Shown here: in pieces, positions 40,406-54,549 of the stretch | Numbering within the stretch: position 1 is the first letter of the stretch | Layout: the number at the start of each line of letters is the position of its first letter | Source of the DNA: an uncultured Bacilli bacterium | GTDB taxonomy: Bacteria; Bacillota_I; Bacilli_A; RF39; UBA660 | Length of the DNA: 54,549 nt | NCBI GenBank assembly: GCA_951800155.1 | Contig: CATOJL010000001.1 | Span: forward strand, 1 to 54,549 | Reading direction: 5' to 3' | Position numbers and translations under genes: made by a program | The notes under the pieces: generated by a model | The model's input: the letters and a program-made list of their open reading frames with translations, nothing else | The model's database searches: none | What the model was told of the DNA's origin: nothing

Positions 40406-40876
40406 CTACTTATTCTTACCATTACGTTTTAGTTGATTATACATTGCTCTTTCTTTTGGACTTGCATTAAACATAGCATGATCATCCAAAATCTCTTGTG
40501 CATTTGGATTTTCTATTAATGCTACTCCATAAAAGAAACCAAAGACTCCACCAACAATTGCAAAAATAATTGGAATAGGACCTTCGCCCATGAACATTAG
40601 AGAACCTAAACCGTAACCCATAGATCCAAGAATTGCTCCCATAACAATCCCAGATACTAAACTTTTTATACTTACACCAATTCCAGCTCTATTAGTATTT
40701 GGATTTTCCTTAACATTATTATAACCACAATTCTTACATAAAATGTTGTTAAAACTTTTTCCACACTCAGGGCAAAAATGCTCAATTGAATATTCAGTTT
40801 CATATCCACAATGAACACACTTAGTTGATTTATCGCTAATTTCTTTTCCACAACTTCCACATTTAATTAACGCCAT
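40406..40876 (-). CDS. Zinc-ribbon membrane protein (double CxxC pairs plus glycine-zipper TM helices)
   Basis: MALIKCGSCGKEISDKSTKCVHCG, then CPECG...CKNCG, then Gly-rich TM segments. Confidence 0.6.
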   Translation of the reverse strand: MALIKCGSCGKEISDKSTKCVHCGYETEYSIEHFCPECGKSFNNILCKNCGYNNVKENPNTNRAGIGVSIKSLVSGIVMGAILGSMGYGLGSLMFMGEGPIPIIFAIVGGVFGFFYGVALIENPNAQEILDDHAMFNASPKERAMYNQLKRNGKNK

Positions 40877-40903
40877 AAATTTACTTCCTTTCTTACACTC
40901 AAA

Positions 40904-41431
40904 TTAATTAGTCTTTGCATAATCTTGATATGTGCCACCTGTATCATCACAACGTAAAATTGTATCTGAATCTTTTAAAGAACAATTATATTGTATACTG
41001 CCATAACTATAAATTTTTACATCTGATCCATATTTCTCATAAGTATATGCACGAGGATCCGCACAAGCATTAGTTTTAATATTACATAGTTGGTAAACTA
41101 CTTGGCCATCATCCTTAAATTTAAAAGTTTCTCTCATTGCATCACCGAAAACATTTTCATACTTAGGTGCTGAGTATTCAGCGTTTAATGTACTAGAAGA
41201 TAATTTGCCTTTATGTGTAGAATTAGTAAAAAGAGGAATAACCAAAATTATAAAAAACAAAATGAATACACTTAAAAAAATAAAAATACCATGCTTATTA
41301 TGCCTTTTCAATCTATTATTAACTTTACCATTACTTGGAAGTGAAACAGAAGTAGGTGCACCACAATGAATACATATGTCAGTTGTATCGCTAATTTCTT
41401 TTCCACACTCAACACATTTAATTAATGCCAT
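40904..41431 (-). CDS. Zinc-ribbon membrane-anchored protein (paralogous N-terminus to 40406..40876)
   Basis: Start moved to ATG 41431 (MALIKCVECGKEISDTTDICIHCG), matching the paralogue. One TM helix, then a Cys-containing extracytoplasmic domain. Confidence 0.6.
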   Translation of the reverse strand: MALIKCVECGKEISDTTDICIHCGAPTSVSLPSNGKVNNRLKRHNKHGIFIFLSVFILFFIILVIPLFTNSTHKGKLSSSTLNAEYSAPKYENVFGDAMRETFKFKDDGQVVYQLCNIKTNACADPRAYTYEKYGSDVKIYSYGSIQYNCSLKDSDTILRCDDTGGTYQDYAKTN

Positions 41432-41484
41432 TAAATCACCATTTTTTCCTTTCTTTATAAAACAATAAAAATATTCATTACCTA

Positions 41485-41736
41485 TTAATTGTTCCAAACT
41501 AATTTTTCAACAAATAGAACAACTAATACGATCTCAAAAGTAAATAACAATATCACAATATTATTACCAAAACCAGCAGATGTTGATGTTAAAGCTAGAT
41601 CATATGGAATTTGGGTAGCTTTGCAAATAGTATCTGTAATAGCCCTATTATATGGTGAAAACAGAATAGATGAACAAACAATTAATATATTTTCACATAT
41701 TATTAGTGTTCTATTTTCAAAACAACCTATAAACAT
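41485..41736 (-). CDS. Small hydrophobic protein, first gene of the operon
   Basis: Preferred over the overlapping plus-strand ORF because of its RBS (aaaggag, 9-nt spacing), two hydrophobic segments and co-orientation with the downstream genes. Confidence 0.35.
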   Translation of the reverse strand: MFIGCFENRTLIICENILIVCSSILFSPYNRAITDTICKATQIPYDLALTSTSAGFGNNIVILLFTFEIVLVVLFVEKLVWNN

Positions 41737-41884
41737 AAAAATTTAACTCCTTTCTATTCAATGATAAGTTTTTCTTCTAAAGAAAGTATTATCACATTCA
41801 TTATACCACAAAAGTAACATTTGAAGATACCATCATTTCAAAACATACATGAGAAAATAATATTATGTAAGGTGGAGGTGTAAT

Positions 41885-42190
41885 ATGGGCAGAAATAATC
41901 ATTCATATACAGATGAACAGATAATAGATTATCAAGAAATTAAAAAAAATTTATGCCAAAATATGCGTATTGCACAAAAGCTTGCTAAAATAAAAGTAAA
42001 AGATGCAGCACCAGCACTTGGCATAGAACCAGAATCATTAAAAAGAATAGAAGCTCCGAGTTCAAAAATAGGTCCATCACTGGAAGTATTATGTGGTGCA
42101 ATTGAATTATATAATCAAAGTCCAAACTTCTATTGGATAGATTGGGAAGAAAACCAAAAGTTATTAGAAAGCAAAAAGGAAGAGACCTAA
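41885..42190 (+). CDS. XRE-like HTH regulator, divergent from the operon
   Basis: RBS ggtggagg. MRIAQKLAKIKVKDAAPALGIEPESLKRIEAP...LEVLCGAIELYNQSP follows the HTH_3 pattern. Confidence 0.5.
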   Translation: MGRNNHSYTDEQIIDYQEIKKNLCQNMRIAQKLAKIKVKDAAPALGIEPESLKRIEAPSSKIGPSLEVLCGAIELYNQSPNFYWIDWEENQKLLESKKEET

Positions 42191-42414
42191 CTCTTCCTTT
42201 TAAAGTATGCAATATACATTGTTTTTGAATCATCTATTGAATTTAACTCTTCCAAAGAGTATCCAGCAATATGAATCAAATAATCCATTATTTCAAACTC
42301 TTTAATATTGTCTTTCTTGTTCTTGAAAGTTATTTCAATTTTCTCCGGAAAATTATAAGATAACTTCTCTTTTATCATATCAAGATTAGGATTATGTAGT
42401 AACAACTTATTCAA
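42187..42414 (-). CDS. Hypothetical protein (75 aa)
   Basis: ORF only. Co-oriented with 42500..43234 and 85 bp downstream of it. No motif. Confidence 0.35.
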   Translation of the reverse strand: MNKLLLHNPNLDMIKEKLSYNFPEKIEITFKNKKDNIKEFEIMDYLIHIAGYSLEELNSIDDSKTMYIAYFKRKS

Positions 42415-42499
42415 TCAGATCACCATCCACTTGTATATTAGCATGTTTAAAAAAATTACACAGTCTATATTAAGACAATGTAATAAGGATTGTCAAACA

Positions 42500-43234
42500 T
42501 CAATAAAAATACTTCAAGTATCTCTTCTTAGAATAGTAACTCTTGATCAGTTTGTCATAATCAGCAATACAGGAATCAATATACTTCTTCTTAAAATCAT
42601 CAACAGATTTCTTTCTTCTAGTAAGATCCATATCATTATACTTTTCTAAACGACAATCCATATTCTCGAACAATCTCATTACAGGTCCTCGACCTCTTTG
42701 ACAAAATGCTATATCAGACATCAGAACTAATATCTTCTTGCTTTCTTCTAAACTGTACTCCTCAACATTCTTCAATGGAACTTGAATATCATTTAGAACA
42801 TCTTTAATAAAATCAACATACTTAGCATTACTAATAAAACCACTAATAATCAGCTTGTTAAGTAGTTCCTCAAAAGTAGCATCATCTAGCTTGTAGAAAA
42901 AAACTCGTAATTTACTACTTTTATAACTTAACAGGTTAGTTAGTTCTAACTCGCCACACTCTATAACATAATCTATACAGGTAGATAAAGAAACAATATT
43001 ATAGAAGTATAACTTCGCATATCGTATAAACTCATTCATAATGTTTAGAAATTGCTTAGCAGTAATACCATCATCTTTAGCATATACATCAAAAGAAAAA
43101 GTTCGTTCATCAATCCTAGAAATCTCTTCACTTAATCTCTTACGACGAATAAGATCATACAACATCATGTCATAAGTGGATCCCTCGTTAAGTATAATAT
43201 ACTTCAACAACTCAATCTTAGTTTCAGTTTTCAA
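42500..43234 (-). CDS. Hypothetical protein (244 aa)
   Basis: A long ORF with protein-like composition. No recognisable motif. Confidence 0.5.
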   Translation of the reverse strand: MKTETKIELLKYIILNEGSTYDMMLYDLIRRKRLSEEISRIDERTFSFDVYAKDDGITAKQFLNIMNEFIRYAKLYFYNIVSLSTCIDYVIECGELELTNLLSYKSSKLRVFFYKLDDATFEELLNKLIISGFISNAKYVDFIKDVLNDIQVPLKNVEEYSLEESKKILVLMSDIAFCQRGRGPVMRLFENMDCRLEKYNDMDLTRRKKSVDDFKKKYIDSCIADYDKLIKSYYSKKRYLKYFY

Positions 43235-43389
43235 TTAATCACCACCATTCGCTTATTGTTTTATAACGTAAGTTGGTGATAATTACAGCACTTAATTAAA
43301 AAAAATCATATAAACTATTAAGAATCTCTCTTAAATATGTTATAATATAAATTGTTAGAGACACAAAATTATTTGTTAAGGAGGATAAT

Positions 43390-44097
43390 ATGGAAGTAAG
43401 AGAATTTGAAAATATTATGAAAAATGATTTGAAAGAAGTTTATAATGAAATCCTAAAAAACCACAATTATAAATTACCAATTAGTGCTAAATCTAGAAGT
43501 GGTGCAGAAATAAGTGATTATTTAGAAGATGGATTTGTTGAATATTTTCAAACTCATTCACATGATAGAATTTACAATCCAAAAGGTTCCCCAAAAGGAC
43601 ATACTAAAAATCCATATGATTTTTGTTTTAATTATAAAAATCCGGAATTTAATTTTGATGATTTAATTTGGGGCGATATAAAAGCAACAAAAAATTCATA
43701 CCAAGATAGTAATCCTGACTTGGGAACTCCAACTAAAATGATAAAATTCATGAAAGATGGTCACTTTTATTTAGTTTTTGTGTTTGTAGAATATGATGCT
43801 TCAGAAGATGGTGGTACTATCTTTATCCCCTATGAAGATGGAGAATATGTTCATGTAATGTTTTTAAAAGATATTAGTAGCACAGTGAGAATTAATCCAA
43901 AACCTCAATTCCAAGTTAATATTCATGCTCCAGAAGAATATAGAACAAAAGAAGAGTTTTTAGATTTATTCCTAAAAAAATATAAAGAATCAAATGAGCG
44001 AATTATTAAAATTCAAATGAGAAAAAAAGAAGAACTAGATAAAATATTCGAAGAATTAAAAAAAATACAATTAAGTAAAAAAGATGATGAAGAATAA
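43390..44097 (+). CDS. Putative Type II restriction endonuclease (PD-(D/E)XK-like)
   Basis: RBS aaggagg. NPYDF ... WGDIKATK fits PD...(D/E)xK. Convergent with, and 10 bp from, the NPPY methyltransferase gene. Confidence 0.45.
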   Translation: MEVREFENIMKNDLKEVYNEILKNHNYKLPISAKSRSGAEISDYLEDGFVEYFQTHSHDRIYNPKGSPKGHTKNPYDFCFNYKNPEFNFDDLIWGDIKATKNSYQDSNPDLGTPTKMIKFMKDGHFYLVFVFVEYDASEDGGTIFIPYEDGEYVHVMFLKDISSTVRINPKPQFQVNIHAPEEYRTKEEFLDLFLKKYKESNERIIKIQMRKKEELDKIFEELKKIQLSKKDDEE

Positions 44098-44119
44098 TTA
44101 TTTTTCATCATCTTTTTTT
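44083..44119. terminator. Bidirectional terminator shared by the convergent R and M genes
   Basis: 9-bp stem gatgatgaa/ttcatcatc with T-runs on both strands. It overlaps both stop codons. Confidence 0.65.
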
Positions 44120-46099
44120 AAAAAAACTGTTTATATAATTTATTTCTTCTTTGTTAATTCCATATATTTTATATATAGTTTCGTTTAACATATTATAATA
44201 TTCATCATAACAATTATCATTTATTAATAAAGAATCAACTATATTAATTATATTTTGATATTCAGAATTATTTACTGCTATTTTTATTCGTTTCAAATCC
44301 AAAGTCTTTATCTGTGGAGTCTTTCCATTACCTCTTCTTATGATATTATTAATTCGTGAATAAAAAGTAATCAAATCCGAATTTAATATTCCACAAACAT
44401 ATTTCAGCATAAAAATGCTTTCTTTACTATTATTTTTATCACTTAGTATATATAAACTATTATTAGCTGCATATGGTTTATCAGTATAAGTAGCTATTAT
44501 ATCATTAGCGCTTTGTCTAATAAATAATTTAGGCGATAGATAAGCTTCTTTATCTCCTAAAGTAACTCTTTTCTTATTTTTAACACCAATTTTTTCTAAT
44601 TCTTCTTTAAACTGATTTGAAATATCTAGCTGTAACTGATAATTATATTCAATATATTTGCTAGTATTAAGTAATCCAAATTTTTTTGATAAACCTTTTG
44701 AGCCCTCTAAAAATGGAAAAACTAGGTTATTTGTTTTCTTATTTTTATTAACTATAAACTCTTCAGTTTTTCCTGTTAAAGCACAACAGGTTCTTAAACA
44801 TTTATTAGGATAATATTTTTCAAGTGAATCAAATTTATTCACTTTATCATTTATATTTCTCTCTATATCAGAAAGAGGAACATATATCTTATATTGATTA
44901 TTATCATTATACCATATTGACTGATCAATACTAATCTTGGTATTTTCTTTATAATCATGCCAAATAGTTAACCCATGATTTTTGCTTTTAACTAATGAAA
45001 TAACCATTTGTCCACTTGCAACATTTTCAAACTCGTTCATATTAGTAGTTATAGATTCAATATAACAATTTTCTAGTAAATACTTTCTAATGTCAATAAA
45101 CGCCGTTTCAAAAAAGGAAATATCTAATATAAAAATCAATTTGCCATTTTCTTTTAAAGACTTAATACCATTTTCCAAAAAAAACATTATCATATTAAAC
45201 TTATTGTTACCTTTTTTATTTATAACAAAATCAAAGGTATTAAATTGCTTTCTCTTTTCTTCAGTCATGTTTCTACTTCTTTTGCCATACATTGTAACAT
45301 ATGGCGGATTACTAATAACTAAATCAAATTTATTTACATTTTTATAATTGCAAAAATCTATATTACTAATATTTAATCTTGGCAATATAAAACTATTATT
45401 AGTATCATAAACAATTTTTATATAATCAATAGTAGACACTAAAATATTGGCTTCGGTTATTTTACAGGCAAATGAGTCTATATCGTTTGTATAGAAATTT
45501 GTAAATATATCCAATAAAGTTTTTTCAATCTCCTTAACATTATTAACATCTACCATATCTAACTTTCTTCTTATAATTTCAATTAAGAACACTCCAGATC
45601 CAGAACTTGGCTCTAATATTTTTTGATTATTATAATTATCTATTAAATTTACCATATAATTTACTACATCTTTAGAATGTGTATAGAATTGTCCATAATC
45701 TTTTCGATCTTTAGTGTTCAAAGAAGATTCATAAATATATCCTAAAATATCATCATCCCTATTATTTTTTGAAAAAAAATCTATGATTGCTAACGCATTT
45801 TCAGAATCATAATCAATGTCATCATTTAAAATGTATGGATAAACTTTTCTTAGAATGTCATCACCATTGTTTTTTTGTGTCCTCAATTTAGAGATTAAAA
45901 AACAATTTATAAGCAATATAAATTGCTCTTTTTTGTCTCGTATATTAATTTCTTGAGAAAAAGCTCTAATGTATTCATCTAATAAATTTTGAAATCTCAT
46001 GTCTATCACTTCTTTCTCAATTCTAATTTTCCCCATATAGTACGATAAAAATATATGATTATTATACCATAAATAGGTTGATCTTACAATTTTGTTCAA
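44108..46099 (-). CDS. N6-adenine DNA methyltransferase (Eco57I/TaqI-like gamma class) with C-terminal target-recognition domain
   Basis: QFYTHSKDVVNYMV, EPSSGSGVFL (motif I), LVISNPPYV (motif IV) and a TaqI_C-like LKYVCGILNSDLITFY. The real start is probably ATG 46036 or 46000. Confidence 0.8.
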   Translation of the reverse strand: MNKIVRSTYLWYNNHIFLSYYMGKIRIEKEVIDMRFQNLLDEYIRAFSQEINIRDKKEQFILLINCFLISKLRTQKNNGDDILRKVYPYILNDDIDYDSENALAIIDFFSKNNRDDDILGYIYESSLNTKDRKDYGQFYTHSKDVVNYMVNLIDNYNNQKILEPSSGSGVFLIEIIRRKLDMVDVNNVKEIEKTLLDIFTNFYTNDIDSFACKITEANILVSTIDYIKIVYDTNNSFILPRLNISNIDFCNYKNVNKFDLVISNPPYVTMYGKRSRNMTEEKRKQFNTFDFVINKKGNNKFNMIMFFLENGIKSLKENGKLIFILDISFFETAFIDIRKYLLENCYIESITTNMNEFENVASGQMVISLVKSKNHGLTIWHDYKENTKISIDQSIWYNDNNQYKIYVPLSDIERNINDKVNKFDSLEKYYPNKCLRTCCALTGKTEEFIVNKNKKTNNLVFPFLEGSKGLSKKFGLLNTSKYIEYNYQLQLDISNQFKEELEKIGVKNKKRVTLGDKEAYLSPKLFIRQSANDIIATYTDKPYAANNSLYILSDKNNSKESIFMLKYVCGILNSDLITFYSRINNIIRRGNGKTPQIKTLDLKRIKIAVNNSEYQNIINIVDSLLINDNCYDEYYNMLNETIYKIYGINKEEINYINSFFKKR

Positions 46100-46209
46100 A
46101 CTTTTGTCTTATTTTTCTTCATTATTGGCATTATAAATTATATTATAAAAAAAGAAAAACTATTTACTTCAAGTTTATATAGATAAAAACGAAGTATAAT
46201 TAGTTTGCA

Positions 46210-46644
46210 TTACTGACACATAGTAATTAATTTATCTACTGTATCATCCATACCATCCGCTTGAATCATTGCATCTAGTTTTCCAGTTTCACGCAACTCT
46301 TTAATTAATGCTATTACAGGATCTAGCAACTCAGATGGATGCTTAATATTATCTCCTTTATATACCAGTTCTACGACTTTAAAGAATAAGTCCTGATCGT
46401 TACTAATAAACTTAGTATCTCCATTGAATTTAATCATATATTTTGACTCAAAAACATCACTTAAATTTGGATTTTTATACTCGTTCATTAGTTTGTTAAG
46501 AGTTTCTACAGTTGCTTTCTTCAAAACAAACAATTTATGCTTATTATTGTCAAATACATACCCATCTTCACATATTGTAAGAGTATAAATTCCATCATCT
46601 ATCTCTTTTATAAGCATAATTAACCAATTCTCACATTTAGTCAT
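46210..46644 (-). CDS. Hypothetical protein (144 aa)
   Basis: ORF only, lying between the two methyltransferase genes. Confidence 0.45.
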   Translation of the reverse strand: MTKCENWLIMLIKEIDDGIYTLTICEDGYVFDNNKHKLFVLKKATVETLNKLMNEYKNPNLSDVFESKYMIKFNGDTKFISNDQDLFFKVVELVYKGDNIKHPSELLDPVIALIKELRETGKLDAMIQADGMDDTVDKLITMCQ

Positions 46645-46879
46645 ACATATCCTTTCAAATTATCGCTTATTTGCCAGTTTTTTGCCACTTGTAGCAATTA
46701 TTCTAGGCACCATAATATAAATCCCACACTTGAACAAGTTCAAGCTTTTTTAACACTCTTTTGCAAAATATCTAAAATCTAAATATTATCTATGTTGAAT
46801 ATCTTATCTAAATATACGACATATACGACGAAAATTTCTAAAAGCCACTCAAAAAAGACCTTTTTATACCTAGCAAGAT

Positions 46880-46907
46880 TTATCAATAATAGTTTTAATG
46901 ATATAAT
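46880..46907 (+). promoter_or_regulatory. Sigma-A-type promoter with extended -10 for the HsdM-S gene
   Basis: ttatca (46880-46885), 16-nt spacer, TGaTATAAT (-10 at 46902-46907), about 40 nt upstream of ATG 46946. A direct repeat atatacgac x2 lies at about 46813-46830. Confidence 0.5.
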
Positions 46908-46945
46908 AGAGATAACAACAAGTCCTTTAGAAAGGAGTTAATTGC

Positions 46946-49063
46946 ATGAATCACGATAAACAAAATTTATACAGCACATTATGGAAGATTATTGATAAAC
47001 TTCAAGGTGCTACAGATGCATGGTCATTCAAATATTACCCAATGATACTATTATTCTATCGTTTCTTATCTACTAACAACATAAACTATGTAAAAAAAAC
47101 ATTTTCAATTGACTATATAAAACTTTCTGATGATGAAAGTTTGTCAATAAAACAGAAAATAATCGATGATAATGACTTCTTCATATTACCTAGCAAATTA
47201 TTTCAGAATGTCGTTAAAAGCGATATAAAAAGCCAGTATCTAAATGTCATACTAGGGAGCATATTTGATGAAATAGAAGCATCATCTAAGTATAAGTTAA
47301 CAGGTATATTTAGGGAATTTGATGCAAAAAGTAACACTTTAGGGGAAAACGACTCTGATAGAAGCAATAAACTTTCACAACTACTACAATGTATTAAAAA
47401 GCTTAAGCAAGATGACATAAACGAAACAGAATATGATACATTTGGAGACATATATGAGTTCTTAATAAACAACTATGCCAAGACATCTGGAAGACTTGGA
47501 GGTGTATATTTTACTCCTAATACTCTTAGTTCTTTACTAAGTAAAATAGCTAATTCATACGTTGAGAAGCCCCAAACTATATACGATCCAACTTGTGGAA
47601 CAGGTTCACTACTCTTAGAATATATTAAACAAAATCCTAACGTTGAAGTATATGGACAAGAAATATCTCCTAGCTTATACAATATTTGTAAGATGAATAT
47701 GATTCTTCATGACGTTAAGGACTACACTATAACGTTAGGGGATACTTTAGCAAAACCTATGTCTATTCACGAGAACAAATTCGATATAATACTATCAAAT
47801 CCACCATTTAGAACAAAGTGGGATGTCGATTCAGTAAATAGTAAAGATAAACGTTTCAACGAATTACCTGTTCTTCCACCAAATGATAAAGCTGACTATG
47901 CTTTCGTTCTACATTCTCTCTACACATTAAATAAAAATGGTGTAGCAGTTATTGTTGTATCTCCAGGAATATTAAATAGAGGAAACGAAGAACAAAATAT
48001 TAGAAAATATCTTGTTGAAAAAAATCTAATTGATACTATTGTAATGCTTCCTAATGACTTATTCTATGGCACTTCAATCAATGTATGTATAATGATACTA
48101 AGAAAAAACAAAGAAGATAACAAAGTCCTATTTATAGACGTAGCATCAGAATATAATAAAAACAAAAAAAAGAAAGAATTAACTAGTACTAACATAAATA
48201 ATATCTTAACTCTTATTAAAGAAAGAAAAACGAACAACGATAAGTCTTATCTAGCAGATCCTAATGAAATAATCAATAATTCATATAATCTAGCTGTAAC
48301 ATCATATGTCAAAACTAAATGGTTACCCCCATTAGAATATGAAGAAAACATTGAAGAGCCATTAGAGGATATAATAGCCCAAAAACAAAAAATCTTAAGT
48401 GAATTATTCACTCAAACTAAAGATATTGATTCATTCATCAATGATAACGCGAAGTATGTTAAAAGATTTATCACACTAAATGATATAGCTATTTCAATAA
48501 GAACAGGATTAAATCCACGTAATTACTTTACTCTGATAAATGAAGGCCCTCACTATCTTATAACATCAAAAGAATTGTCAGATCAATCAATTGTAATAAC
48601 ATCTCAAACAAAAAAGGTAGATGAAAAAGCAAAGAAACGTATTAATGGCTATTCTCATTTTGAGGTTGGAGACATACTATTCTCCTTATCAGAATCACAA
48701 GTTAAAACAGCATTCGTTGAAGAAAAACATAAAGACTATGACATAAATGAATCAATCTATATCATTAAACCCAACCTTGAGTTAATTAATCCAAAATATC
48801 TAATGTTCCTACTCGAATCTAACTACCTAAGTAATCAAATCAATAAAAACATATCCTATGGAAAAATAAAAAAGATAGGAATTAAAAAATTCAGATTATT
48901 ACCTATTCCAGATTTTCCAATGGATATACAAAATCAAATTGGCGAGAAATTAAATAAGTTAAATTCAATTAAGACTAAGCTAGAAACATTACATACAAAA
49001 GAAGAACAACTAATAATAAAAAAGTATCAATATTATAAAAATAAACCATTTGAATTAAATTAA
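46946..49063 (+). CDS. Type I-like DNA methyltransferase: HsdM fused to a single HsdS target-recognition domain
   Basis: HsdM_N-like N-terminus (LWKIIDKLQGATDAW), GVYFTP, DPTCGTGSLLL (motif I), ILSNPPF (motif IV). The C-terminal ~230 aa have the HsdS half-subunit pattern (LINPKYLMFLLESNYLSNQI...LPIPDFPMDIQNQIGEKL). No HsdR in the window. Confidence 0.8.
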   Translation: MNHDKQNLYSTLWKIIDKLQGATDAWSFKYYPMILLFYRFLSTNNINYVKKTFSIDYIKLSDDESLSIKQKIIDDNDFFILPSKLFQNVVKSDIKSQYLNVILGSIFDEIEASSKYKLTGIFREFDAKSNTLGENDSDRSNKLSQLLQCIKKLKQDDINETEYDTFGDIYEFLINNYAKTSGRLGGVYFTPNTLSSLLSKIANSYVEKPQTIYDPTCGTGSLLLEYIKQNPNVEVYGQEISPSLYNICKMNMILHDVKDYTITLGDTLAKPMSIHENKFDIILSNPPFRTKWDVDSVNSKDKRFNELPVLPPNDKADYAFVLHSLYTLNKNGVAVIVVSPGILNRGNEEQNIRKYLVEKNLIDTIVMLPNDLFYGTSINVCIMILRKNKEDNKVLFIDVASEYNKNKKKKELTSTNINNILTLIKERKTNNDKSYLADPNEIINNSYNLAVTSYVKTKWLPPLEYEENIEEPLEDIIAQKQKILSELFTQTKDIDSFINDNAKYVKRFITLNDIAISIRTGLNPRNYFTLINEGPHYLITSKELSDQSIVITSQTKKVDEKAKKRINGYSHFEVGDILFSLSESQVKTAFVEEKHKDYDINESIYIIKPNLELINPKYLMFLLESNYLSNQINKNISYGKIKKIGIKKFRLLPIPDFPMDIQNQIGEKLNKLNSIKTKLETLHTKEEQLIIKKYQYYKNKPFELN

Positions 49064-49102
49064 AAGCAGTAGAAGAGCATCTCAGTTCTCCTACTGCTTT
49101 TT
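49063..49102 (+). terminator. Rho-independent terminator after the HsdM-S gene
   Basis: 10-bp stem aaagcagtag/ctactgcttt followed by tt, at the stop codon. Confidence 0.7.
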
Positions 49103-49116
49103 ACCTTCTTAATGTA

Positions 49117-49953
49117 TCAAAGTATTCCACCTTCATGCTCAATCATAACAAGTTTACCCATAAGTAAACGTATTGTTCTAGCAACATCATTATAGTACGT
49201 AATAGAATCAGTTGTTTGCTTTAATAAACAATATAAATCACTAATTACAGATTCAAGATTTTGTTTGAAAATATCAGGAAACAACTTACCGTCAATAAAA
49301 TCATCAGGATAATCTATTTCCCAACAATAATATCTTCCTAAATATTGAATAATATCGTACACTGCTTTATCTGACCTGTTATTTTTTATAGAATCAGTGA
49401 CATATTCATTTTGCATCCCTACTTCTCCATCAGTAGGAACCACATTAGGCAAGTTACTATCTTCAATACATTTTCTTACAAATCTACTATATAATAAATA
49501 AGACTTGTATTTTGCGTTGAATTCAGTCCACATATGAAATCCATAAGCATCACTTCTATTAATCATATCATCGTAGTTTCCTTGAAAATATTCATTACAA
49601 TAATTATAAAAATCAATTGCATGTGTTAATTCATGAAATAAAGTACACATAAATTGCCAATTATTAGTTCTATATTCTTCTATTAGTTTCTTTGAAATAA
49701 ATATTTCAATCTCATCATCTATTGAATTAGGTATACATGTTGTTCCATTGTAATCAGTTTCATCTGCTATATATTTCCTATTGGTCTTCTTCATAAAAGC
49801 TTCGGTTGATTCTTTCATGTTATCAACTATTTGAATCTTGCACTTCAAACTTTCTGGTATTTTATACTCTTGGGAATACATAGATATAAATGAGTTAATA
49901 AATGTATCAATATTTTCCATGATATTTCGTTCTTCTGTCATAAAACCACCCAT
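49117..49953 (-). CDS. Putative HExxH zinc metallopeptidase
   Basis: The single motif CTLFHELTHAIDF (HExxH) sits in a helical protein. No other match recognised. Confidence 0.45.
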   Translation of the reverse strand: MGGFMTEERNIMENIDTFINSFISMYSQEYKIPESLKCKIQIVDNMKESTEAFMKKTNRKYIADETDYNGTTCIPNSIDDEIEIFISKKLIEEYRTNNWQFMCTLFHELTHAIDFYNYCNEYFQGNYDDMINRSDAYGFHMWTEFNAKYKSYLLYSRFVRKCIEDSNLPNVVPTDGEVGMQNEYVTDSIKNNRSDKAVYDIIQYLGRYYCWEIDYPDDFIDGKLFPDIFKQNLESVISDLYCLLKQTTDSITYYNDVARTIRLLMGKLVMIEHEGGIL

Positions 49954-50002
49954 TAAATTATACAGAAATATGCCTATTTAAGCAATATATCAACCATAAA
50001 AG

Positions 50003-50284
50003 CTACTTCTTAAAATTAACATCATAAAAATAATAAACTTTCTTACATTTGTTACAGATAATACCTATAAAATCTAAACCTTTAATCTTAAAACCATCAC
50101 CTTTTAATACAAGAATATTTTTGCTACTGCACTCTGGACAATAAACATGTTTACCCCAAGATACTTGTTGGCTAAACATCTTATTAGATATCTCATATCC
50201 ATCTCTTGAATGTACATTAAGTTTTTTAAGATATTCATCAGATATTTCATCAAATGATATACATTTAACAGTATGCTTCATCAT
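50003..50284 (-). CDS. Small zinc-ribbon protein
   Basis: Strong RBS aaggaggg. CPECSS...(23 aa)...CNKCKK forms two CxxC pairs. Confidence 0.5.
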   Translation of the reverse strand: MMKHTVKCISFDEISDEYLKKLNVHSRDGYEISNKMFSQQVSWGKHVYCPECSSKNILVLKGDGFKIKGLDFIGIICNKCKKVYYFYDVNFKK

Positions 50285-50403
50285 CTACTCCCTCCTTATT
50301 TTCACTATCAAATATCATAATAGGGTATTTGTTAGTGAAATCAAAAAAATAATCTATATAGGCGATATGAATTATAATCTATTTTCCCATATTTACAAGG
50401 GTT

Positions 50404-50688
50404 CTAATTTAACATATGCAAGAGTACCTCCGCACCTCCTGCATTTATGTGATTAGATATTACAATAACATCCGAATTATTTCCATAGGGCGCCAATATA
50501 CGTTCAACCCTTTCTGTTGGAGTCAAAGTTTCATCTGTAGTACGTGTTATACTTACAGGTACCCCCAACTCATCAAATTTGTCATACATATATTTTGAAA
50601 TATCCAAGGTTAAATTCTTTTCTACAATACCATTTCCACTTGCTCCACCATCAGTTCCACCATGGCTTGTATCGGTTTTCCCCAAAAA
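50404..50688 (-). pseudogene. Amidase_3 N-terminal half: middle segment of the split amidase gene
   Basis: GKTDTSHGGTDGGASGNGIVEKNLTLDISKYM...VSITRTTDETLTPTERV...DVIVISNHINAGG is colinear with the first half of the Amidase_3 domain. TAG/TGA lie in frame just upstream, and there is no RBS. Confidence 0.85.
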
Positions 50689-50719
50689 CTATCATTTATA
50701 TTAAATTTATTAGGTTATA

Positions 50720-52324
50720 TTATAAATCAAGATTCCACTCTAATCTGATTTCTCGTGTATTTGTTTCCTTATTCAGCTTACCAATATATATTTTTTCAAT
50801 AAATTCATCAACTATTATTTTATTTAGTTCTTTAATATTTTTATATTTCTTAAGTATGCTCTCAATATCTTTTGAATTTTGTTTTCTTGTTTCAGTTTCT
50901 CCTAGCTCGTTTTCTATCTCTTCAAGTCTAGCTTGATAACTTTCAACATCTTTTGTATATTCTTCCCTTAACATTTGAAAATCTTCTTCAGATATAACAC
51001 CTTTCATCTTATCTTGATAAAGATTTTTAAAGTATAATTTGCTTTCATTAATCTTTTTCTCAAGATTTGCTTTTTCTTTATTAAGATTAGTTATAATTAT
51101 ATCTTGGTTGTTTTCTTTATTAAGTTCTTTTTCTAAATCACTTTTTAATAATGCTTCATTACATTTTTTTAATAGTTCATTGATTGCATTTAGTACATAT
51201 TCTTCTAATAGATCTAGTCTTATAGAACGATAATTGTCGCAAGTATGATATTTTTTATTACCTTTGCATTGAAGATATGCTCTTTTTTCTACTTTTCCAC
51301 CTGCACAAGTAATATTGCATTGATTTCTCATAAATATTCTTCCACATTCTTCACAATATACTTTTTGACTTAATATATGAATTTTACCATTAGACATAGG
51401 TTTCTCATGTTTACCTAATCTTTTTTGTACTAAATACCAAGTTTCTTTATCGATGATTGGCTCGTGTGCATTTTCAGTTCTGCACCATTCAGACTTAGGA
51501 ACTTTTTTTGATTTATGATTTTTATAACTAATATTTGTTCTTTTCCCTTGTATTAAATTGCCAATATAAACTTCATTTTTAAGCATTTTAGCAATTGTAT
51601 CAGAAGTCCACATACCTGTTGTTTTATAATTAAAGTTGCAACAAACAAAATTACTTCCAATAGATTTTTTATAAAGAGATGGGCATAATATATTTCTTTC
51701 ATTTAGACTTGCACAAATCCTATGATAACCAATTCCTTCTTTATATTTTTCAAATATTTCCCTTACTACATAAGCAACATTTTCATCAATTATCAACTTG
51801 TGTTTATCGTTAGGATCTTTCAAATAACCATAGGGAGCAAAACTTCCCATATATAATCCATCTTCTCTTTTATTCTTTAAAGATTTTTTAACATTATTTG
51901 ATAAATCCTCTAAATACCATTCATTAACAAGCCCATTAATTTGTCTTGATTTTTTGTTAGCTTCATTATCAGTATCTGCATTATCTACAATACTAACAAA
52001 ACGAACTCCCCATTCAACAAACTTATTATGAAGATATTTTTCTATTACTTCCATATCTCTTGAAAATCTACTTTGTGTTTTACATAGAACAATATTAATT
52101 CTTCCTGATTCACAATCTTTAATCATTCTTTCAAAATCAGGTCTATAAGTTCCTGCTCCTGAATAGTCATCATCTGAATATATATCAACGATTTCCCATT
52201 CTTGCTCTAAAGCATATTTTAAAAGCATACTTTTTTGATTAGCAATTGACTCACTATCATCATTTTTGTTTTTCTTATATCTATCTTCATCAGATAGTCT
52301 ACAATATACACCTACCTTTTCCAT
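50720..52324 (-). CDS. Large serine recombinase (TndX/TnpX-like), rec2
   Basis: VGVYCRLSDED...DSESIANQK...DDDYSGAGTYRPDFERMI...QSRFSRD...VRFVSIVDNADT, a recombinase domain, a zinc ribbon (CEECG...C..C) and a coiled coil. RBS gaggtga. Confidence 0.9.
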   Translation of the reverse strand: MEKVGVYCRLSDEDRYKKNKNDDSESIANQKSMLLKYALEQEWEIVDIYSDDDYSGAGTYRPDFERMIKDCESGRINIVLCKTQSRFSRDMEVIEKYLHNKFVEWGVRFVSIVDNADTDNEANKKSRQINGLVNEWYLEDLSNNVKKSLKNKREDGLYMGSFAPYGYLKDPNDKHKLIIDENVAYVVREIFEKYKEGIGYHRICASLNERNILCPSLYKKSIGSNFVCCNFNYKTTGMWTSDTIAKMLKNEVYIGNLIQGKRTNISYKNHKSKKVPKSEWCRTENAHEPIIDKETWYLVQKRLGKHEKPMSNGKIHILSQKVYCEECGRIFMRNQCNITCAGGKVEKRAYLQCKGNKKYHTCDNYRSIRLDLLEEYVLNAINELLKKCNEALLKSDLEKELNKENNQDIIITNLNKEKANLEKKINESKLYFKNLYQDKMKGVISEEDFQMLREEYTKDVESYQARLEEIENELGETETRKQNSKDIESILKKYKNIKELNKIIVDEFIEKIYIGKLNKETNTREIRLEWNLDL

Positions 52325-52390
52325 TTGCTATCACCTCAAACTTCCTTGAGGTAAAACAAACTTAAATCTATAAAGGTATTATACTTCATA

Positions 52391-52537
52391 TTAATAATTA
52401 TTTAAAGCTATGCTATTTGCATTTTCTAAGTTTAGAATAGCTCTCAACAATTTTTTTGTTAAAATATCTTCTATTTCTTTATCAGTTTTTTCTACATTAT
52501 TTTTTACGCTAAATACTACATTATATACGACCTCCAT
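52391..52537 (-). CDS. 48-aa ORF immediately upstream of rec2 (possible directionality factor; speculative)
   Basis: Below the track cutoff. ATG 52537 follows aaagggggaatgag. Translation MEVVYNVVFSVKNNVEKTDKEIEDILTKKLLRAILNLENANSIALNNY. Confidence 0.2.
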   Translation of the reverse strand: MEVVYNVVFSVKNNVEKTDKEIEDILTKKLLRAILNLENANSIALNNY

Positions 52538-52604
52538 TTTCTCATTCCCCCTTTTCATGTTATTTATAAATAGATTCCTCCAATCATAAACATCTCTCCT
52601 TTCT

Positions 52605-53147
52605 CTACATATAATCTTTCATCAATTCTTGCATTTCTTTTTCTTCTTCAGGTGAAAGTGGAATTGCTTCACATCTCACACCATCCCATAGCTCTACACC
52701 ATCAGAATCTTTCGTCATAATTGGACCAATATTATTTCTATTATTTTTTCTATTATTAATTCTTCTATTATGGTAGTAATTTTCTTCTATAGGTTCTTGG
52801 AAATTTTTTTCTACCACATTAGAATTTGCTTTACTTACTATTTCAGGATTCAAATATATTCTTCTTTTACCATCAACATATTTGATGATAATGTATTTTT
52901 GTTTTTTAAGTCTTGATAAAGAATTTGAAATTGTTTTAGTACCTAAACTTAACTCCTTGGCAAAATAACTATTACTAGCATAGCAATATTCCTTATTGTA
53001 TGATAGTGAATTAATTATTCCTAATATCAACTTATCTGTTGATGAACAATTGCTATCATTTAATATTATTCTTGGCGTTGCTGTATAAGACCTTATAAAA
53101 GGTATAATATTCCTCCTAGAATAAATGATAGTTTTGGAATTAACCAT
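52605..53147 (-). CDS. Winged-HTH domain protein (replication-organiser/regulator-like)
   Basis: YCYASNSYFAKELSLGTKTISNSLSRLKKQKYIII is a wHTH pattern common in mobile-element replication/regulation proteins. Confidence 0.4.
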   Translation of the reverse strand: MVNSKTIIYSRRNIIPFIRSYTATPRIILNDSNCSSTDKLILGIINSLSYNKEYCYASNSYFAKELSLGTKTISNSLSRLKKQKYIIIKYVDGKRRIYLNPEIVSKANSNVVEKNFQEPIEENYYHNRRINNRKNNRNNIGPIMTKDSDGVELWDGVRCEAIPLSPEEEKEMQELMKDYM

Positions 53148-53224
53148 TTTGATTTGGTAAAAGTTTAAGGTACTAACATAAGTCTACCAAGCTTACTGTA
53201 CCATTACTACTAGGTGTCCTTAGA

Positions 53225-53485
53225 CTATCCTAGTATATTAATCGTGTACATTCCATTTGAGTATTCCTTAAATAGTAAATATTTGTAATCTTCTAATTTT
53301 CTTAAATTATTTTTTAATCCTTGATTACTAATCCTTACTACTTGTTGTAACTCTCCAATATTTAGATCTGTAATGATTCGATTTTGACCTTTAGAATAAA
53401 TATACGAATATATTAATTTTCCCTCAGGTTTAATTCTCTTATCATTCCATAATCTCTTTGGAACTTCTAGTTGAGTATTAGTCAT
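53225..53485 (-). CDS. Small winged-HTH protein (paralogous fold to 52605..53147 N-terminus)
   Basis: LIYSYIYSKG...LNIGELQQVVRISNQGLKNNLRKLEDYKYLLF. Confidence 0.4.
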   Translation of the reverse strand: MTNTQLEVPKRLWNDKRIKPEGKLIYSYIYSKGQNRIITDLNIGELQQVVRISNQGLKNNLRKLEDYKYLLFKEYSNGMYTINILG

Positions 53486-53640
53486 CCATTTCCTCCTTTC
53501 TTGTGTTGACTTTTACATCACTTACAAATCTAATATATCATTATATGATGTAATTGTCAACATAATAATTACAATTTTGTTGATTTTTACAACAATTCAT
53601 GTTACAATACTTTTAGCAATTAAAAAGGAGTTTTTAAGTT

Positions 53641-54234
53641 ATGAAAAAAAATACTACTGAACTTGGTAAATATATTTGTGAAGCAAGGACATCAAAAGGT
53701 ATATCGCAAAGACAACTTGCTAAACTATCTAATATGGATTGTGCAGAGGTTTCGAGGATTGAAGCAGGAAAAAGGCAAAAACCAAATGTACTATTTTTAA
53801 AAGGTATAGCAGAAGCACTTAATTTAAGTTTAGTTAAATTAATGGAATTAGCTGGTTATAATGATATAGATATTAATTGGGGCATGGTTGCGACTGAAAG
53901 AAGATCATATAAAGACTATCAAGATGAATTAGATACTTATGTAAAATTCTATTATGATGTTCTTAATGACATTGAGGAAAGAAGAAAAAATGCTTTAGAA
54001 TGCAAAAATATATGTACTGACTTAATTGATAGAATTGAAAATCCTGATATTTATAAAAAGGAAATTACAATGGATGAAGTAAAAGATGCACTAAAAGAAA
54101 TGACTAGAATAATGCGACCAAATTTAGAAAAACTTGATAAATCTAAATATCCTAAAACTGATCCTGCATTACTTAGAAAGTCAGTTCTTATTGATATTGA
54201 TGAATACAAACAAAAACATAATACTAATAAATAA
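53641..54234 (+). CDS. XRE-family repressor-like protein with C-terminal helical domain
   Basis: LGKYICEARTSKGISQRQLAKLSNMDCAEVSRIEAGKRQKPNVLFLKGIAEALNLS is HTH_3. Divergent from the wHTH genes, a lysogeny-switch-like layout. Confidence 0.75.
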   Translation: MKKNTTELGKYICEARTSKGISQRQLAKLSNMDCAEVSRIEAGKRQKPNVLFLKGIAEALNLSLVKLMELAGYNDIDINWGMVATERRSYKDYQDELDTYVKFYYDVLNDIEERRKNALECKNICTDLIDRIENPDIYKKEITMDEVKDALKEMTRIMRPNLEKLDKSKYPKTDPALLRKSVLIDIDEYKQKHNTNK

Positions 54235-54404
54235 CCCATAGTATTATGTTTTTTATATTAAATAAAGCAACATTATTACTTACGATTAGTTTGGAATAAG
54301 TTGCTATGGCAGGGTTTCCAAAGGGACAAGTCCCTTGGCACACATCGTTATTGGTTATACCAATATCGTAGTGTGTTACTAACTTGTCTAAAAGTTAGTT
54401 AAAA

Positions 54405-54443
54405 CCGAAATCCATTAGTTACGAAGTTTCTTTTGGATTTCGG
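54405..54443 (-). terminator. Terminator hairpin after the partial minus-strand gene at the window end
   Basis: 9-10-bp stem ccgaaatcc(a)/(t)ggatttcgg, followed on the minus strand by tttt, 13 nt after the stop. Confidence 0.5.
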
Positions 54444-54455
54444 CTTTCCATAGTA

Positions 54456-54549
54456 TTAAATAAATTGTTTTATTTTTTCTAAATCATTTAATGATAACTC
54501 AATATCATTATTATTAAACATACTTTTAATAATAATCTTTCCTTTAGAT
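54456..54549 (-). CDS. 3' end of an unidentified gene (runs off the window)
   Basis: Open frame ...SKGKIIIKSMFNNNDIELSLNDLEKIKQFI* ending at 54456-54458. Too short to classify. Confidence 0.3.
   Translation of the reverse strand, partial: SKGKIIIKSMFNNNDIELSLNDLEKIKQFI

What the first reader, a model, noticed from the sequence alone, without database searches (positions are those of the whole stretch)
50404..54549. The same amidase gene is interrupted a second time by a different serine-recombinase element about 250 bp upstream
- **No real start.** The middle amidase fragment has in-frame TAG and TGA at 50689-50694 and only an RBS-less TTG. It begins just 3-4 residues before the conserved D-x-x-H-G-G strand, so the start codon and first strand are missing.
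- **Second recombinase.** The stop codon of a second large serine recombinase (rec2, 534 aa, same orientation as rec1) lies 31 bp further on, at 50720. This repeats the recombinase-next-to-att geometry of element 1.
- **Second element.** Beyond rec2 are two wHTH genes and a divergent XRE repressor, so another integrated element runs off the window.
- **Independent insertions.** rec1 and rec2 share only the catalytic motifs by eye. The junction-proximal DNA (33249-33336 versus 50686-50719) is unrelated. This points to two independent elements in one ~1.4-kb gene.
- **Inference.** Two separate excisions would be needed to restore the gene, or the gene is a preferred landing pad.
Basis: partly seen in the sequence, partly recalled or inferred. 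Interest (0 to 1): 0.68.

Follow-up and report, generated by a model that had tools for sequence, protein, structure and literature searches.

The report
Amidase gene split by two recombinase elements
One cell-wall amidase gene of an uncultured gut bacterium is cut into three pieces by two unrelated mobile elements, each with its own serine integrase, and the same gene is hit in the same way in dozens of related species; this extends a known phenomenon to a new target gene.

Summary
Intact orthologues, and same-species alleles, start M-A/T-K-I-V-I-D-P-G-H-G-G. The window's middle fragment instead reads stop-stop-F-L-G-K-T-D-T-S-H-G-G. Its first 21 nt are the attP arm of a large serine recombinase (rec2) whose stop codon lies 34 nt away.

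In 45 of 51 related loci a rec2-family gene is followed within 27-83 nt by the His-Gly-Gly codons of an amidase. In 20 loci the missing 5' piece lies 4.4-11.4 kb upstream. Crossover is always at the CA of the zinc-ligand His codon.

Element 1 (rec1, 31% identical to rec2) uses a second site about 225 bp downstream, with core GGAGGTG after H-I-N-A-G-G. Strains exist with element 1 only, and other species with element 2 only. About 19 species representatives carry both interruptions.

Element 2 is not the 3.6-kb module seen in the window. The hisS fragment at the window's edge is cargo, so the element is at least 9.9 kb. Its left end and the amidase 5' piece were not recovered for this genome.

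The amidase has a conserved sigma-K-like promoter, which suggests a late mother-cell gene. Developmental excision is untested.

Verdict: a real feature and a new member of a known kind. The target gene and the multi-site use may be undescribed.

The parts
32136..33248 (-). Amidase 3' fragment: the C-terminal half of the Amidase_3 domain plus five LysM repeats. It starts at the shared core of site B.
   Evidence: Pfam LysM x5. In-frame AEVIYALRNKG... aligns to intact orthologues from column 95 on. Open frame to the natural stop.
33242..33248 (-). Site B core (GGAGGTG) at the rec1-proximal junction of element 1.
   Evidence: The same 7-nt core is present in the intact attB of L006 and at the other junction, 50433-50439.
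33337..35019 (-). rec1, the large serine recombinase of element 1 (560 aa).
   Evidence: Resolvase, Recombinase and Zn_ribbon_recom domains. 31% identical to rec2.
33249..50432 (-). Element 1, about 17.2 kb. It carries rec1, a rolling-circle Rep-like gene, two small resolvases and two methylase/restriction modules. No phage structural genes are called.
   Evidence: Gene and Pfam tables of L001 and L002. Mosaic similarity (81-98% over four segments) to the site-B element of strain L010.
50433..50664 (-). Amidase middle fragment. It runs from the CA of the zinc-ligand His codon (GHGG) to the GGAGGTG core after HINAGG.
   Evidence: Amidase_3 match. Alignment to intact orthologues. 98% identity to L010 from the His codon on.
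50642..50690 (-). attR of element 2: P arm TTGGGGAAAACCGATACAAGC (50685-50665), crossover CA (50664-50663) and B' arm (amidase codons HGGTDGG).
   Evidence: Comparison with same-species attB (L010). The identical P arm is present in L051, L014, L016 and L022. An inverted-repeat partner P' was found at the attL of L051.
50720..52324 (-). rec2, the large serine recombinase of element 2 (534 aa).
   Evidence: Resolvase, Recombinase, Zn_ribbon_recom and DUF4368 domains. Its 90% cluster has 37 members. Relatives were found in about 50 species.
52391..52558 (-). Small conserved ORF (48-55 aa) directly upstream of rec2. It is a candidate recombination directionality factor; this is inference only.
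   Evidence: A 47-55-aa gene is called at this position in L014-L021 and L101-L106. It has no family match.
52605..53147 (-). HTH_36 protein (180 aa) of the element 2 regulatory module.
   Evidence: Pfam HTH_36. Conserved position in the module.
53225..53485 (-). 86-aa ORF, the first gene of the rec2 operon. It is divergent from the XRE gene.
   Evidence: Conserved in all modules. No Pfam or NCBIfam match.
53641..54234 (+). XRE-family repressor-like gene (197 aa), divergent from the rec2 operon.
   Evidence: Pfam HTH_3.
54256..54444 (-). Conserved, structured noncoding segment of about 190 nt, between the cargo and the XRE stop codon.
   Evidence: 75-94% identity in at least 12 loci. Hairpins with compensatory changes: 12 of 29 pairs. 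No Rfam family.
54456..54549 (-). 3' end of a cargo hisS (HisRS) gene of element 2. The element continues off the window.
   Evidence: 100% match to residues 400-429 of the L001 HisRS. The 491aa-S66-HisRS cassette is 91% identical to one inside the complete 11.2-kb element of L101.

Best explanation
**Shown.** Two unrelated integrative elements, each with its own large serine recombinase (LSR), have inserted independently into one roughly 1.35-kb gene. The gene encodes an N-acetylmuramoyl-L-alanine amidase (Amidase_3 domain, five LysM repeats, no signal peptide).

- **Site A.** rec2 recombines a roughly 44-bp attP (TTGGGGAAAACCGATACAAGC-CA-TCCGAGTTATGTATTCCCCAA type, an imperfect inverted repeat) with an attB that spans the start codon to the GHGG motif. 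Strands are exchanged at the CA of the zinc-ligand His codon.
- **Site B.** rec1 uses a different site about 225 bp downstream, with core GGAGGTG, just after the H-I-N zinc-ligand motif.
- **Result.** The gene is in three pieces: a 5' stub of about 9 codons with its promoter (not on this contig), a 77-codon middle piece, and the 3' part.
- **Element 2.** It is a mosaic, non-phage element of at least 9.9 kb. It consists of two tRNA-synthetase cargo cassettes, a 190-nt structured segment, an XRE gene, and an operon of the 86-aa ORF, HTH_36, the 48-aa ORF and rec2. Relatives carry a Mob_Pre relaxase, which makes it look like an integrative mobilizable element.

**Inferred.**
- Both att sites lie in DNA that encodes invariant catalytic motifs. 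This would give the elements a target conserved across many species and would explain the wide host range and the repeated double occupancy.
- The amidase carries a conserved sigma-K-type promoter. It is therefore probably needed only late in the sporulating mother cell, like CwlC, so disruption costs little in growing cells.
- Restoring the gene would need two separate excisions, each by its own LSR plus an unidentified directionality factor.
For: - **Junction A.** The window's attR compared with same-species attB (L010) and with the 84%-identical intact gene (L006) shows identity starting exactly at CATGGTGG.
- **Same junction elsewhere.** The same LSR and junction occur in another species.
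- **Adjacency.** In 45 of 51 loci the LSR stop is followed by the HGG codons of an amidase. Twenty elements (4.4-11.4 kb) show both junctions. CA is invariant, and the P and P' arms co-vary as inverted repeats across subfamilies.
- **Junction B.** The GGAGGTG core is shared by attB, attL and attR.
- **Independence.** rec1 and rec2 are 31% identical. Element 1 occurs without element 2 in L010/P0135. Element 2 occurs without a site-B insertion in L016, L025, L034 and others. About 19 of 44 occupied genes are doubly interrupted.
- **Cargo and extent.**
- **Not a phage.** No phage genes are called, and the nearest phage LSR is at most 39% identical.
- **Promoter.** AC-N16/17-CATANNNTA is found upstream of the RBS in 17 of 24 species, against about 0.2 expected.
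- **Selection.** The fragments keep open frames, and dN/dS against the intact orthologue is about 0.10.
Against: - The left junction (attL) of element 2 and the amidase 5' stub were never seen for this genome. Contigs end 8.2 kb upstream of rec2, and two metagenome scans were negative. A truncated, immobilised element cannot be excluded.
- No recombination directionality factor was identified.
- The sigma-K assignment rests on a consensus match only. No sigma-K/E-like motif lies within 400 nt upstream of rec2 in 29 loci.
- All data come from metagenome-assembled contigs of uncultured organisms.
- Within-species divergence is too low (2 substitutions) to show that selection still acts on the interrupted gene.
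Confidence: 0.85

Rival explanations
1. Developmental switch, like skin/sigK, SPbeta/spsM or gin/gerE. Both elements would be excised specifically in the sporulating mother cell, so that a functional amidase is rebuilt only there. The elements would stay in the spore's chromosome. The double interruption would then be a two-lock control on a mother-cell lysin.
For: - A sigma-K-like promoter is conserved upstream of the amidase in 17-19 of 24 species.
- The architecture resembles CwlC: an N-terminal Amidase_3 domain, no signal peptide and C-terminal wall-binding repeats.
- The neighbourhood contains spoIIR and a SleB-like hydrolase.
- Every sampled allele of this species is interrupted at site B, yet the frames stay open.
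- dN/dS is about 0.1.
- There is precedent for LSR elements in mother-cell genes (PMC4191935, PMC5595907).
Against: - No sigma-E/K-type motif lies within 400 nt upstream of rec2 or its small ORF in 29 loci.
- The XRE/divergent-operon layout, and the Mob_Pre relaxase in relatives, look like an ordinary mobile-element switch.
- Within-species data cannot show ongoing selection.
- No excision products could be looked for.
Confidence: 0.3
2. Element 2 in this particular genome is a dead remnant. Its left part, the attL site and the amidase 5' stub have been deleted or rearranged away. The gene would then be permanently inactive here, and rec2 would have nothing to excise.
For: - No 5' stub or P' arm is found in the window or in the 8.2 kb upstream of rec2.
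- All three assemblies that carry this rec2 end within a few kb of each other.
- The tandem cargo cassettes show recombination inside the element.
Against: - rec2, the module and attR are intact and 94.6% identical to the complete element of L051.
- The visible cargo matches the interior of complete or relaxase-bearing elements, L101 and L107. The end is therefore simply expected further left.
- A contig break at mosaic or repeated cargo is a common assembly outcome.
Confidence: 0.15
3. There is no second interruption. Either the gene naturally begins at the TTG (MGKTDTSHGG), or rec2 and 33-50 kb form one composite element, or the junction is an assembly chimera.
For: - A gene caller did call MGKTDT(S/C)HGG as a start (P0121, P0006).
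- Both LSRs have the same orientation.
Against: - Two in-frame stops lie directly upstream and there is no RBS.
- GKTDTS replaces the first beta-strand KIVIDPG of the Amidase_3 fold, which is present in all intact homologues.
- The foreign 21 nt are an attP arm with a matching inverted partner at the other end of homologous elements.
- Each element occurs without the other.
- The junction recurs in independent samples and species.
Confidence: 0.02

Closest known systems
Sporulation gene-intervening elements excised by large serine recombinases: skin in sigK (SpoIVCA), SPbeta in spsM (SprA/SprB), vfbin in spoVFB, vrin in spoVR, gin in gerE (GirC/GirX)
   Same: - An LSR-bearing element sits inside the coding sequence of a gene.
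- That gene appears to be expressed late in the mother cell (sigma-K-like promoter).
- The recombinase gene lies at the end of the element, next to the att site.
- A short shared core is present at both junctions.
- The element is non-phage, like gin (PMC5595907, PMC4191935).
   Different: - The target is a CwlC-like amidase. It was not found as a target in the papers retrieved.
- Two or three different sites in the one gene are used by unrelated LSRs.
- No sporulation-type promoter was found near rec2.
- Excision during sporulation is untested.
Integrative and mobilizable elements (IMEs) of Firmicutes with serine integrases that target conserved genes (reviewed in PMC5704250, PMC5357655)
   Same: - Small size (4-14 kb).
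- An LSR plus an XRE-type switch.
- Variable cargo cassettes.
- A Mob_Pre (MOBV-type) relaxase in relatives (L014, L101, L107).
- No conjugation machinery and no phage genes.
   Different: - No relaxase is seen in the part of element 2 available for this genome.
- oriT is not identified; there is only a candidate structured 190-nt segment.
- The hosts are uncultured low-GC gut Bacilli.
- The cargo is tRNA synthetases paired with peptidase or acetyltransferase genes.
DNA elements interrupting nifD, fdxN, hupL and other genes in heterocyst-forming cyanobacteria (XisA, XisC, XisF)
   Same: - Genes needed only in a terminally differentiated cell are split by excisable elements.
- XisF is an LSR. 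rec1 and rec2 hit the NCBIfam XisF model weakly, at 95-97 bits against a cut-off of 375.
   Different: - Different phylum, different target genes and a different developmental programme.
- That one gene can carry more than one such element in these cyanobacteria, and that the elements are vertically inherited rather than mosaic mobilizable elements, is stated from my own knowledge and not from a tool result.
B. subtilis CwlC (mother-cell lysis amidase)
   Same: - Amidase_3 catalytic domain at the extreme N terminus.
- No signal peptide.
- C-terminal peptidoglycan-binding repeats.
- Sigma-K-type promoter, by consensus match here.
   Different: - LysM repeats instead of a SPOR domain.
- No equivalog model matched. 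The best NCBIfam hit is CwlD at 74 bits against a cut-off of 221.
- Orthology is not established.

Membership tests
Large serine recombinase (LSR) integrative element | Recombinase with an N-terminal resolvase catalytic domain (Y-x-R-x-S serine), a Recombinase domain and a zinc beta-ribbon domain | tested here: met
   rec2 and rec1 both match PF00239, PF07508 and PF13408 above the gathering scores. The motifs are VYCRLSDED and IYIRLSQED.
Large serine recombinase (LSR) integrative element | The element is bounded by attL and attR; joining the outer halves restores an intact target (attB), and joining the inner halves gives an attP with inverted-repeat arms around a 2-bp crossover | tested here: inconclusive
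   - Met for 20 homologous loci, for example L051 and L101: CA crossover and co-varying P/P' arms.
- In the window itself only attR of element 2 is visible.
- Both junctions of element 1 are visible and share the GGAGGTG core.
Large serine recombinase (LSR) integrative element | Excision requires a cognate recombination directionality factor | not tested
   A conserved 48-55-aa ORF upstream of rec2 is a candidate only. It has no family match.
Sporulation gene-intervening element (skin/SPbeta/gin type) | The interrupted gene is a mother-cell-specific sporulation gene | tested here: inconclusive
   AC-N16/17-CATANNNTA is found upstream of the RBS in 17 of 24 species, against about 0.2 expected. 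spoIIR and a SleB-like gene are nearby. There are no expression data.
Sporulation gene-intervening element (skin/SPbeta/gin type) | The recombinase or its directionality factor is under a sporulation sigma factor | tested here: not met
   No sigma-K or sigma-E -10 consensus lies within 400 nt upstream of rec2 in 29 loci. The test is limited to a simple consensus scan.
Sporulation gene-intervening element (skin/SPbeta/gin type) | Precise excision during sporulation that reconstitutes the gene | not testable with these tools
   This needs read-level or experimental data.
Integrative and mobilizable element (IME) | Own integrase, plus a relaxase and/or oriT, and no conjugative pore genes | tested here: inconclusive
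   - The integrase is present.
- A Mob_Pre relaxase is present in relatives that share the module or cargo: L014, L101, L107.
- No relaxase lies in the 9.9 kb visible for this genome.
- The structured 190-nt segment is only a candidate oriT.
Prophage | Phage structural, packaging or lysis genes | tested here: not met
   No such Pfam families appear in the gene tables of L001, L014-L021 or L101. The best phage LSR match is at most 39% identical.
CwlC-type mother-cell lytic amidase | N-terminal Amidase_3 domain without a signal peptide, plus a C-terminal SPOR wall-binding domain, with sigma-K dependence | tested here: inconclusive
   - The Amidase_3 domain starts at residue 4 and there is no leader.
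- The C terminus is LysM x5, not SPOR.
- The promoter is known only by consensus.
- No equivalog model matched.

The most novel reading that the evidence does not exclude
The amidase is a sigma-K-dependent mother-cell lysin whose expression requires two (in some species three) independent, developmentally timed excisions by unrelated serine recombinases. This would be a multi-lock version of the skin/sigK rearrangement, maintained across dozens of uncultured gut spore-former species. The intervening elements would double as mobilizable carriers of defence and antibiotic-immunity cargo.
Probability: 0.25. Interest if true: 0.7.

Novelty: new member of a known kind. Interest (0 to 1): 0.5.

Why it matters
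- **Target choice.** Serine-integrase elements can converge on a single small gene. They use the DNA that encodes its invariant catalytic motifs as attachment sites. This explains both their wide host range (about 50 species representatives) and the frequent double occupancy.
- **New integrase tools.** The work yields a family of natural LSR/attP/attB sets with a defined CA crossover and co-varying arms. These are raw material for orthogonal integrase tools.
- **A testable developmental case.** If excision proves to be developmental, a CwlC-like lysin joins the short list of genes rebuilt in the mother cell. It would be the first with several independent interruptions.
- **Cargo.** tRNA synthetases paired with MccF-like and GNAT genes hint at mobile immunity to antibiotics that target aminoacyl-tRNA synthetases in the gut.

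Tried and rejected
- **5' stub in local sequence.** I searched the window and the 6-kb contig extension with DNA patterns for K-I-V-I-D-P-G and for the predicted P' arm. Nothing was found.
- **Left boundary next to hisS.** I first took the gap between hisS and XRE as the left end of a 3.6-kb element, partly because of a shared ATGG. I rejected this for two reasons. The 190-nt segment there is part of the conserved module. The hisS cassette lies inside a complete element in L101.
- **hisS, trpS and GNAT as chromosomal core genes.** I considered that these genes were core and that a deletion had fused them to the element. I rejected this because both cassettes sit between a Mob_Pre gene and an XRE/LSR module in other genomes.
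- **Metagenome scans.** Two scans, one for the predicted attL and one for the GNAT cargo gene, found nothing.
- **Direct look-up of hisS.** I worked around it with a homologue search.
- **Rfam.** It gave no family for the 190-nt segment.
- **Sporulation promoters near rec2.** A scan for sigma-K/E motifs upstream of rec2 was negative.
- **Within-species dN/dS.** It was uninformative, with only 2 differences.

Full report
**1. What is in the window**

On the minus strand the region reads, in the direction of amidase transcription, as follows.

| Coordinates | Feature |
|---|---|
| 54549-54456 | 3' end of hisS |
| 54444-54256 | Conserved noncoding segment of about 190 nt |
| 53641-54234 (+ strand) | XRE-family gene |
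| 53485-53225 | 86-aa ORF |
| 53147-52605 | HTH_36 protein |
| 52558-52391 | 48/55-aa ORF |
| 52324-50720 | rec2 |
| 50685-50404 | 93-codon ORF matching Amidase_3 profile positions 4-79 |
| to about 33249 | About 17 kb of element 1, ending with rec1 (35019-33337) |
| 33248-32136 | Rest of the amidase: second half of the catalytic domain plus five LysM repeats |

The middle ORF is preceded in frame by TGA TAG. It starts at a TTG with no Shine-Dalgarno sequence. rec1 and rec2 are both complete large serine recombinases and share 31% identity.

**2. What the intact gene looks like**

A search with the re-joined protein found full-length homologues of 386-403 aa. The nearest was 83-85% identical. 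All begin M-x(1-6)-K-I-V-I-D-(P/A)-G-H-G-G, so the protein starts directly with the first beta-strand and the zinc-ligand His.

The 90%-identity cluster of the window's middle fragment has 31 members. Most start MAKIVIDPGHGGTDGG. The window's allele starts (M)GKTDTSHGGTDGG. DNA of a same-species strain (L010) reads ...ATAGATCCAGGA-CA-TGGTGGAACTGATGG. The window reads ...AACCGATACAAGC-CA-TGGTGGAACTGATGG.

Only about 9 codons, the RBS and the promoter are therefore missing. The GKTDTS codons are foreign. A 68%-identical orthologue in another species (P0006/L009) has the same MGKTDTC start, the same upstream 40 nt and the 3' end of a rec2-like gene.

**3. The rec2 family and its attachment site**

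Contexts of rec2 relatives at 90% identity or more show one conserved module, followed directly by an amidase with its 5' end replaced. The module is: XRE on the opposite strand, an 86-aa ORF, HTH_36, a 48-aa ORF and the LSR.

A scan of one genome per GTDB species returned 79 loci. Most are from uncultured low-GC gut 'Bacilli' MAGs (taxonomy note).

- In 45 of the 51 loci examined, CAY-GGN-GGN (the His-Gly-Gly of an Amidase_3 gene) lies 27-83 nt after the LSR stop.
- In 20 loci the missing stub (M..K-I/V-V-I/L-D-A/P-G-H fused to foreign sequence) lies upstream on the same strand. This gives elements of 4.4-11.4 kb.
- For L051, whose rec2 is 98% identical, attL is ...GATGCAGGA-CA-CCCGAGTTATGTATTCCCCAATG and attR is TTTTTGGGGAAAACCGATACAAGC-CA-TGGGGG.
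- The inner halves form a 44-nt imperfect inverted repeat (TTGGGGAA...TTCCCCAA) centred on CA.
- Across subfamilies the two arms change together: TTGGGTAT/ATAAACCCAA, CCTTGTTTA/ATAACAAGG and TTTGGAC/ATCCAAA. This co-variation is what real LSR attP sites would show. The CA is invariant.

**4. Site B and independence of the two insertions**

At element 1 the intact attB (L006) and both window junctions share GGAGGTG, at 50439-50433 and 33248-33242. The sequences diverge on the element side. The site lies five codons after the H-I-N zinc-ligand motif and about 225 bp from site A.

In this one species the N-terminal fragment ends in at least 10 different foreign tails after HINAGG. Many different elements therefore use site B. 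Different LSRs of 556, 560 and 563 aa abut the 3' fragment in L002-L005. No intact allele of this species was among the best 120 hits.

Genotypes observed:

| Genotype | Where seen |
|---|---|
| Element 1 type, intact 5' end | P0135/L010; same tail AEVLLHMLN; four segments of the element 81-98% identical |
| Different 5'-site occupant (MGITGASHGG) plus a different site-B occupant | P0134/L012 |
| rec2 element alone, amidase otherwise intact | L016, L025, L034, L037, L039-L041, L043-L045, L057 |
| Both sites interrupted, as in the window | About 19 of 44 occupied genes. ORFs stop 79-90 aa after the His, right after H-(I/L)-N-(A/S)-G-G (L050 runs on to 131 aa). Several have a rec1-like gene downstream. 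|

**5. Extent of element 2**

The contig of a second assembly (L001) extends 6 kb past the window. It shows hisS, a Peptidase_S66 gene, a 491-aa ORF, a TrpRS gene, a weak GNAT and a partial M20 peptidase. No amidase stub is present.

It is not.

- The conserved module begins 11 nt after the hisS stop. It is 94.6% identical between L001 and L051, which has different DNA to its left.
- The 491aa-S66-HisRS block is 91% identical to a block that lies inside a complete 11.2-kb element of L101. That element reads: S9 gene | stub MAKKIVIDPGH + P' | 333 aa, Mob_Pre, 491 aa, S66, HisRS, XRE..., LSR | amidase.
- The M20-GNAT-TrpRS block is 92.6% identical to a block that sits between a Mob_Pre gene and an XRE/LSR module in L107.

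Element 2 is therefore at least 9.9 kb and mosaic. The hisS at the window edge is cargo. The true left end is still off every contig available. Two metagenome scans did not recover it.

**6. What the amidase is likely to be**

In 19 of 24 species CATANNNTA lies 10-25 nt upstream of the RBS. In 17 of them AC lies 16-17 nt further upstream. The background rate of the full pattern in 3.25 Mb of these loci predicts about 0.2 hits. This is the B. subtilis sigma-K consensus; that identification comes from established knowledge, not from a test here.

Several other features fit a late mother-cell lysin in the manner of CwlC.
- The protein has no signal peptide.
- The catalytic domain is at the extreme N terminus, followed by wall-binding repeats.
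- spoIIR and a SleB-like gene lie nearby.

Membership in the CwlC family is not established. dN/dS of the fragments against the intact orthologue is about 0.10, and all frames are open. Within-species divergence is too small to show that selection continues after interruption.

**7. Mechanism and its limits**

- **Shown:** two different LSR systems, two different att sites, independent occupancy, and a wide distribution.
- **Inferred, ordinary switch:** the XRE gene and the divergent operon ending in rec2 act as an ordinary mobile-element switch.
- **Inferred, directionality factor:** the small ORF upstream of rec2 may be the directionality factor.
- **Inferred, low cost of disruption:** disruption is tolerated because the gene is used only in a terminal cell.
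- **Not shown:** whether excision is developmentally timed, as for skin, SPbeta and gin (PMC4191935, PMC5595907). No sigma-K/E-type motif lies within 400 nt upstream of rec2 in 29 loci.

**8. Comparison with what is known, and novelty**

LSR elements inside mother-cell sporulation genes, and IMEs with serine integrases that target conserved genes, are both established. What appears new here is:
- the target, a CwlC-like amidase with LysM repeats;
- the use of two or three sites in the one gene by unrelated LSRs;
- the placement of the sites on the codons of catalytic motifs;
- the host group.

The nearest solved or phage LSRs are distant. They include the TnpX and TP901-1 N-terminal domains, and phage LSRs of at most 39% identity.

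I rate the finding as a new member of a known kind, with moderate interest.

Noticed in passing
window 54456-54549; L001 1-6110: Element 2 carries two tandem cargo cassettes. One is M20 peptidase, weak GNAT and TrpRS. The other is a 491-aa ORF, Peptidase_S66 (MccF-like) and HisRS. Each cassette is also found (91-93% identical) in other LSR elements next to a Mob_Pre relaxase. GNAT (MccE-like) and S66 (MccF-like) are the known immunity activities against microcin-C-type aminoacyl-adenylate mimics. The cassettes may therefore be mobile immunity to synthetase-targeting antibiotics; this is untested.
   Followed up: partly
window 54256-54444 (L001 6122-6310): A noncoding segment of about 190 nt between the cargo and the XRE stop is conserved in at least 12 loci. 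It has several hairpins supported by compensatory changes (12 of 29 pairs) and a GTGTG after one hairpin. It has no Rfam family. It is a candidate oriT or small RNA.
   Followed up: partly
L102 15545-19758; L104 9105-13318: In a related species the same amidase is cut at a third site, inside the LysM region, by an element with a 521-aa LSR. The pieces are a 264-aa amidase fragment, then the LSR, then a 58-aa LysM fragment. This is in addition to the 5'-site element.
   Followed up: no
proteins P0122-P0135 (cluster of window 50404-50685): Every sampled allele of this species is interrupted after HINAGG, with at least 10 different foreign tails. No intact same-species allele appeared among the best 120 homologues.
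   Followed up: partly
L010 9950-9990 and 23 other loci: A sigma-K-type promoter consensus (AC-N16/17-CATANNNTA) is conserved upstream of the amidase RBS in 17 of 24 species, in intergenic DNA that is otherwise diverged.
   Followed up: yes
L010 1484-9439: In a same-species strain a Wadjet-like JetABCD cluster (DUF2397, DUF2398, SbcC_Walker_B, DUF3323/JetD) lies directly upstream of the amidase. The gene's surroundings are therefore also a defence-island site.
   Followed up: no
window 35258-49063: Element 1 cargo includes a rolling-circle Rep-like gene, two small resolvases, a 705-aa HsdM-like methylase, a 642-aa N6_Mtase/Eco57I/TaqI_C protein and a SwaI-like endonuclease. No phage genes are called. 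It resembles a defence-carrying integrative element.
   Followed up: no
L022, L024, L052, L056, L060, L078 (downstream of the LSR): Some rec2-family members sit at the same His codon of a different, shorter Amidase_3 gene of about 180 aa with no LysM repeats. The family appears to follow the GHGG motif rather than one orthologue.
   Followed up: no
L036 7224-11660: The smallest element with both junctions (4.4 kb) contains only the LSR and a 597-aa ABC-transporter gene. It lacks the XRE/HTH module, so that module is not essential to the element's structure.
   Followed up: partly
L102 1-4400: Directly upstream of the attL stub lie a truncated 287-aa LSR, an HTH_36 gene and a DndB-like gene. 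These look like remnants of another element, which suggests accretion of elements at this locus.
   Followed up: no
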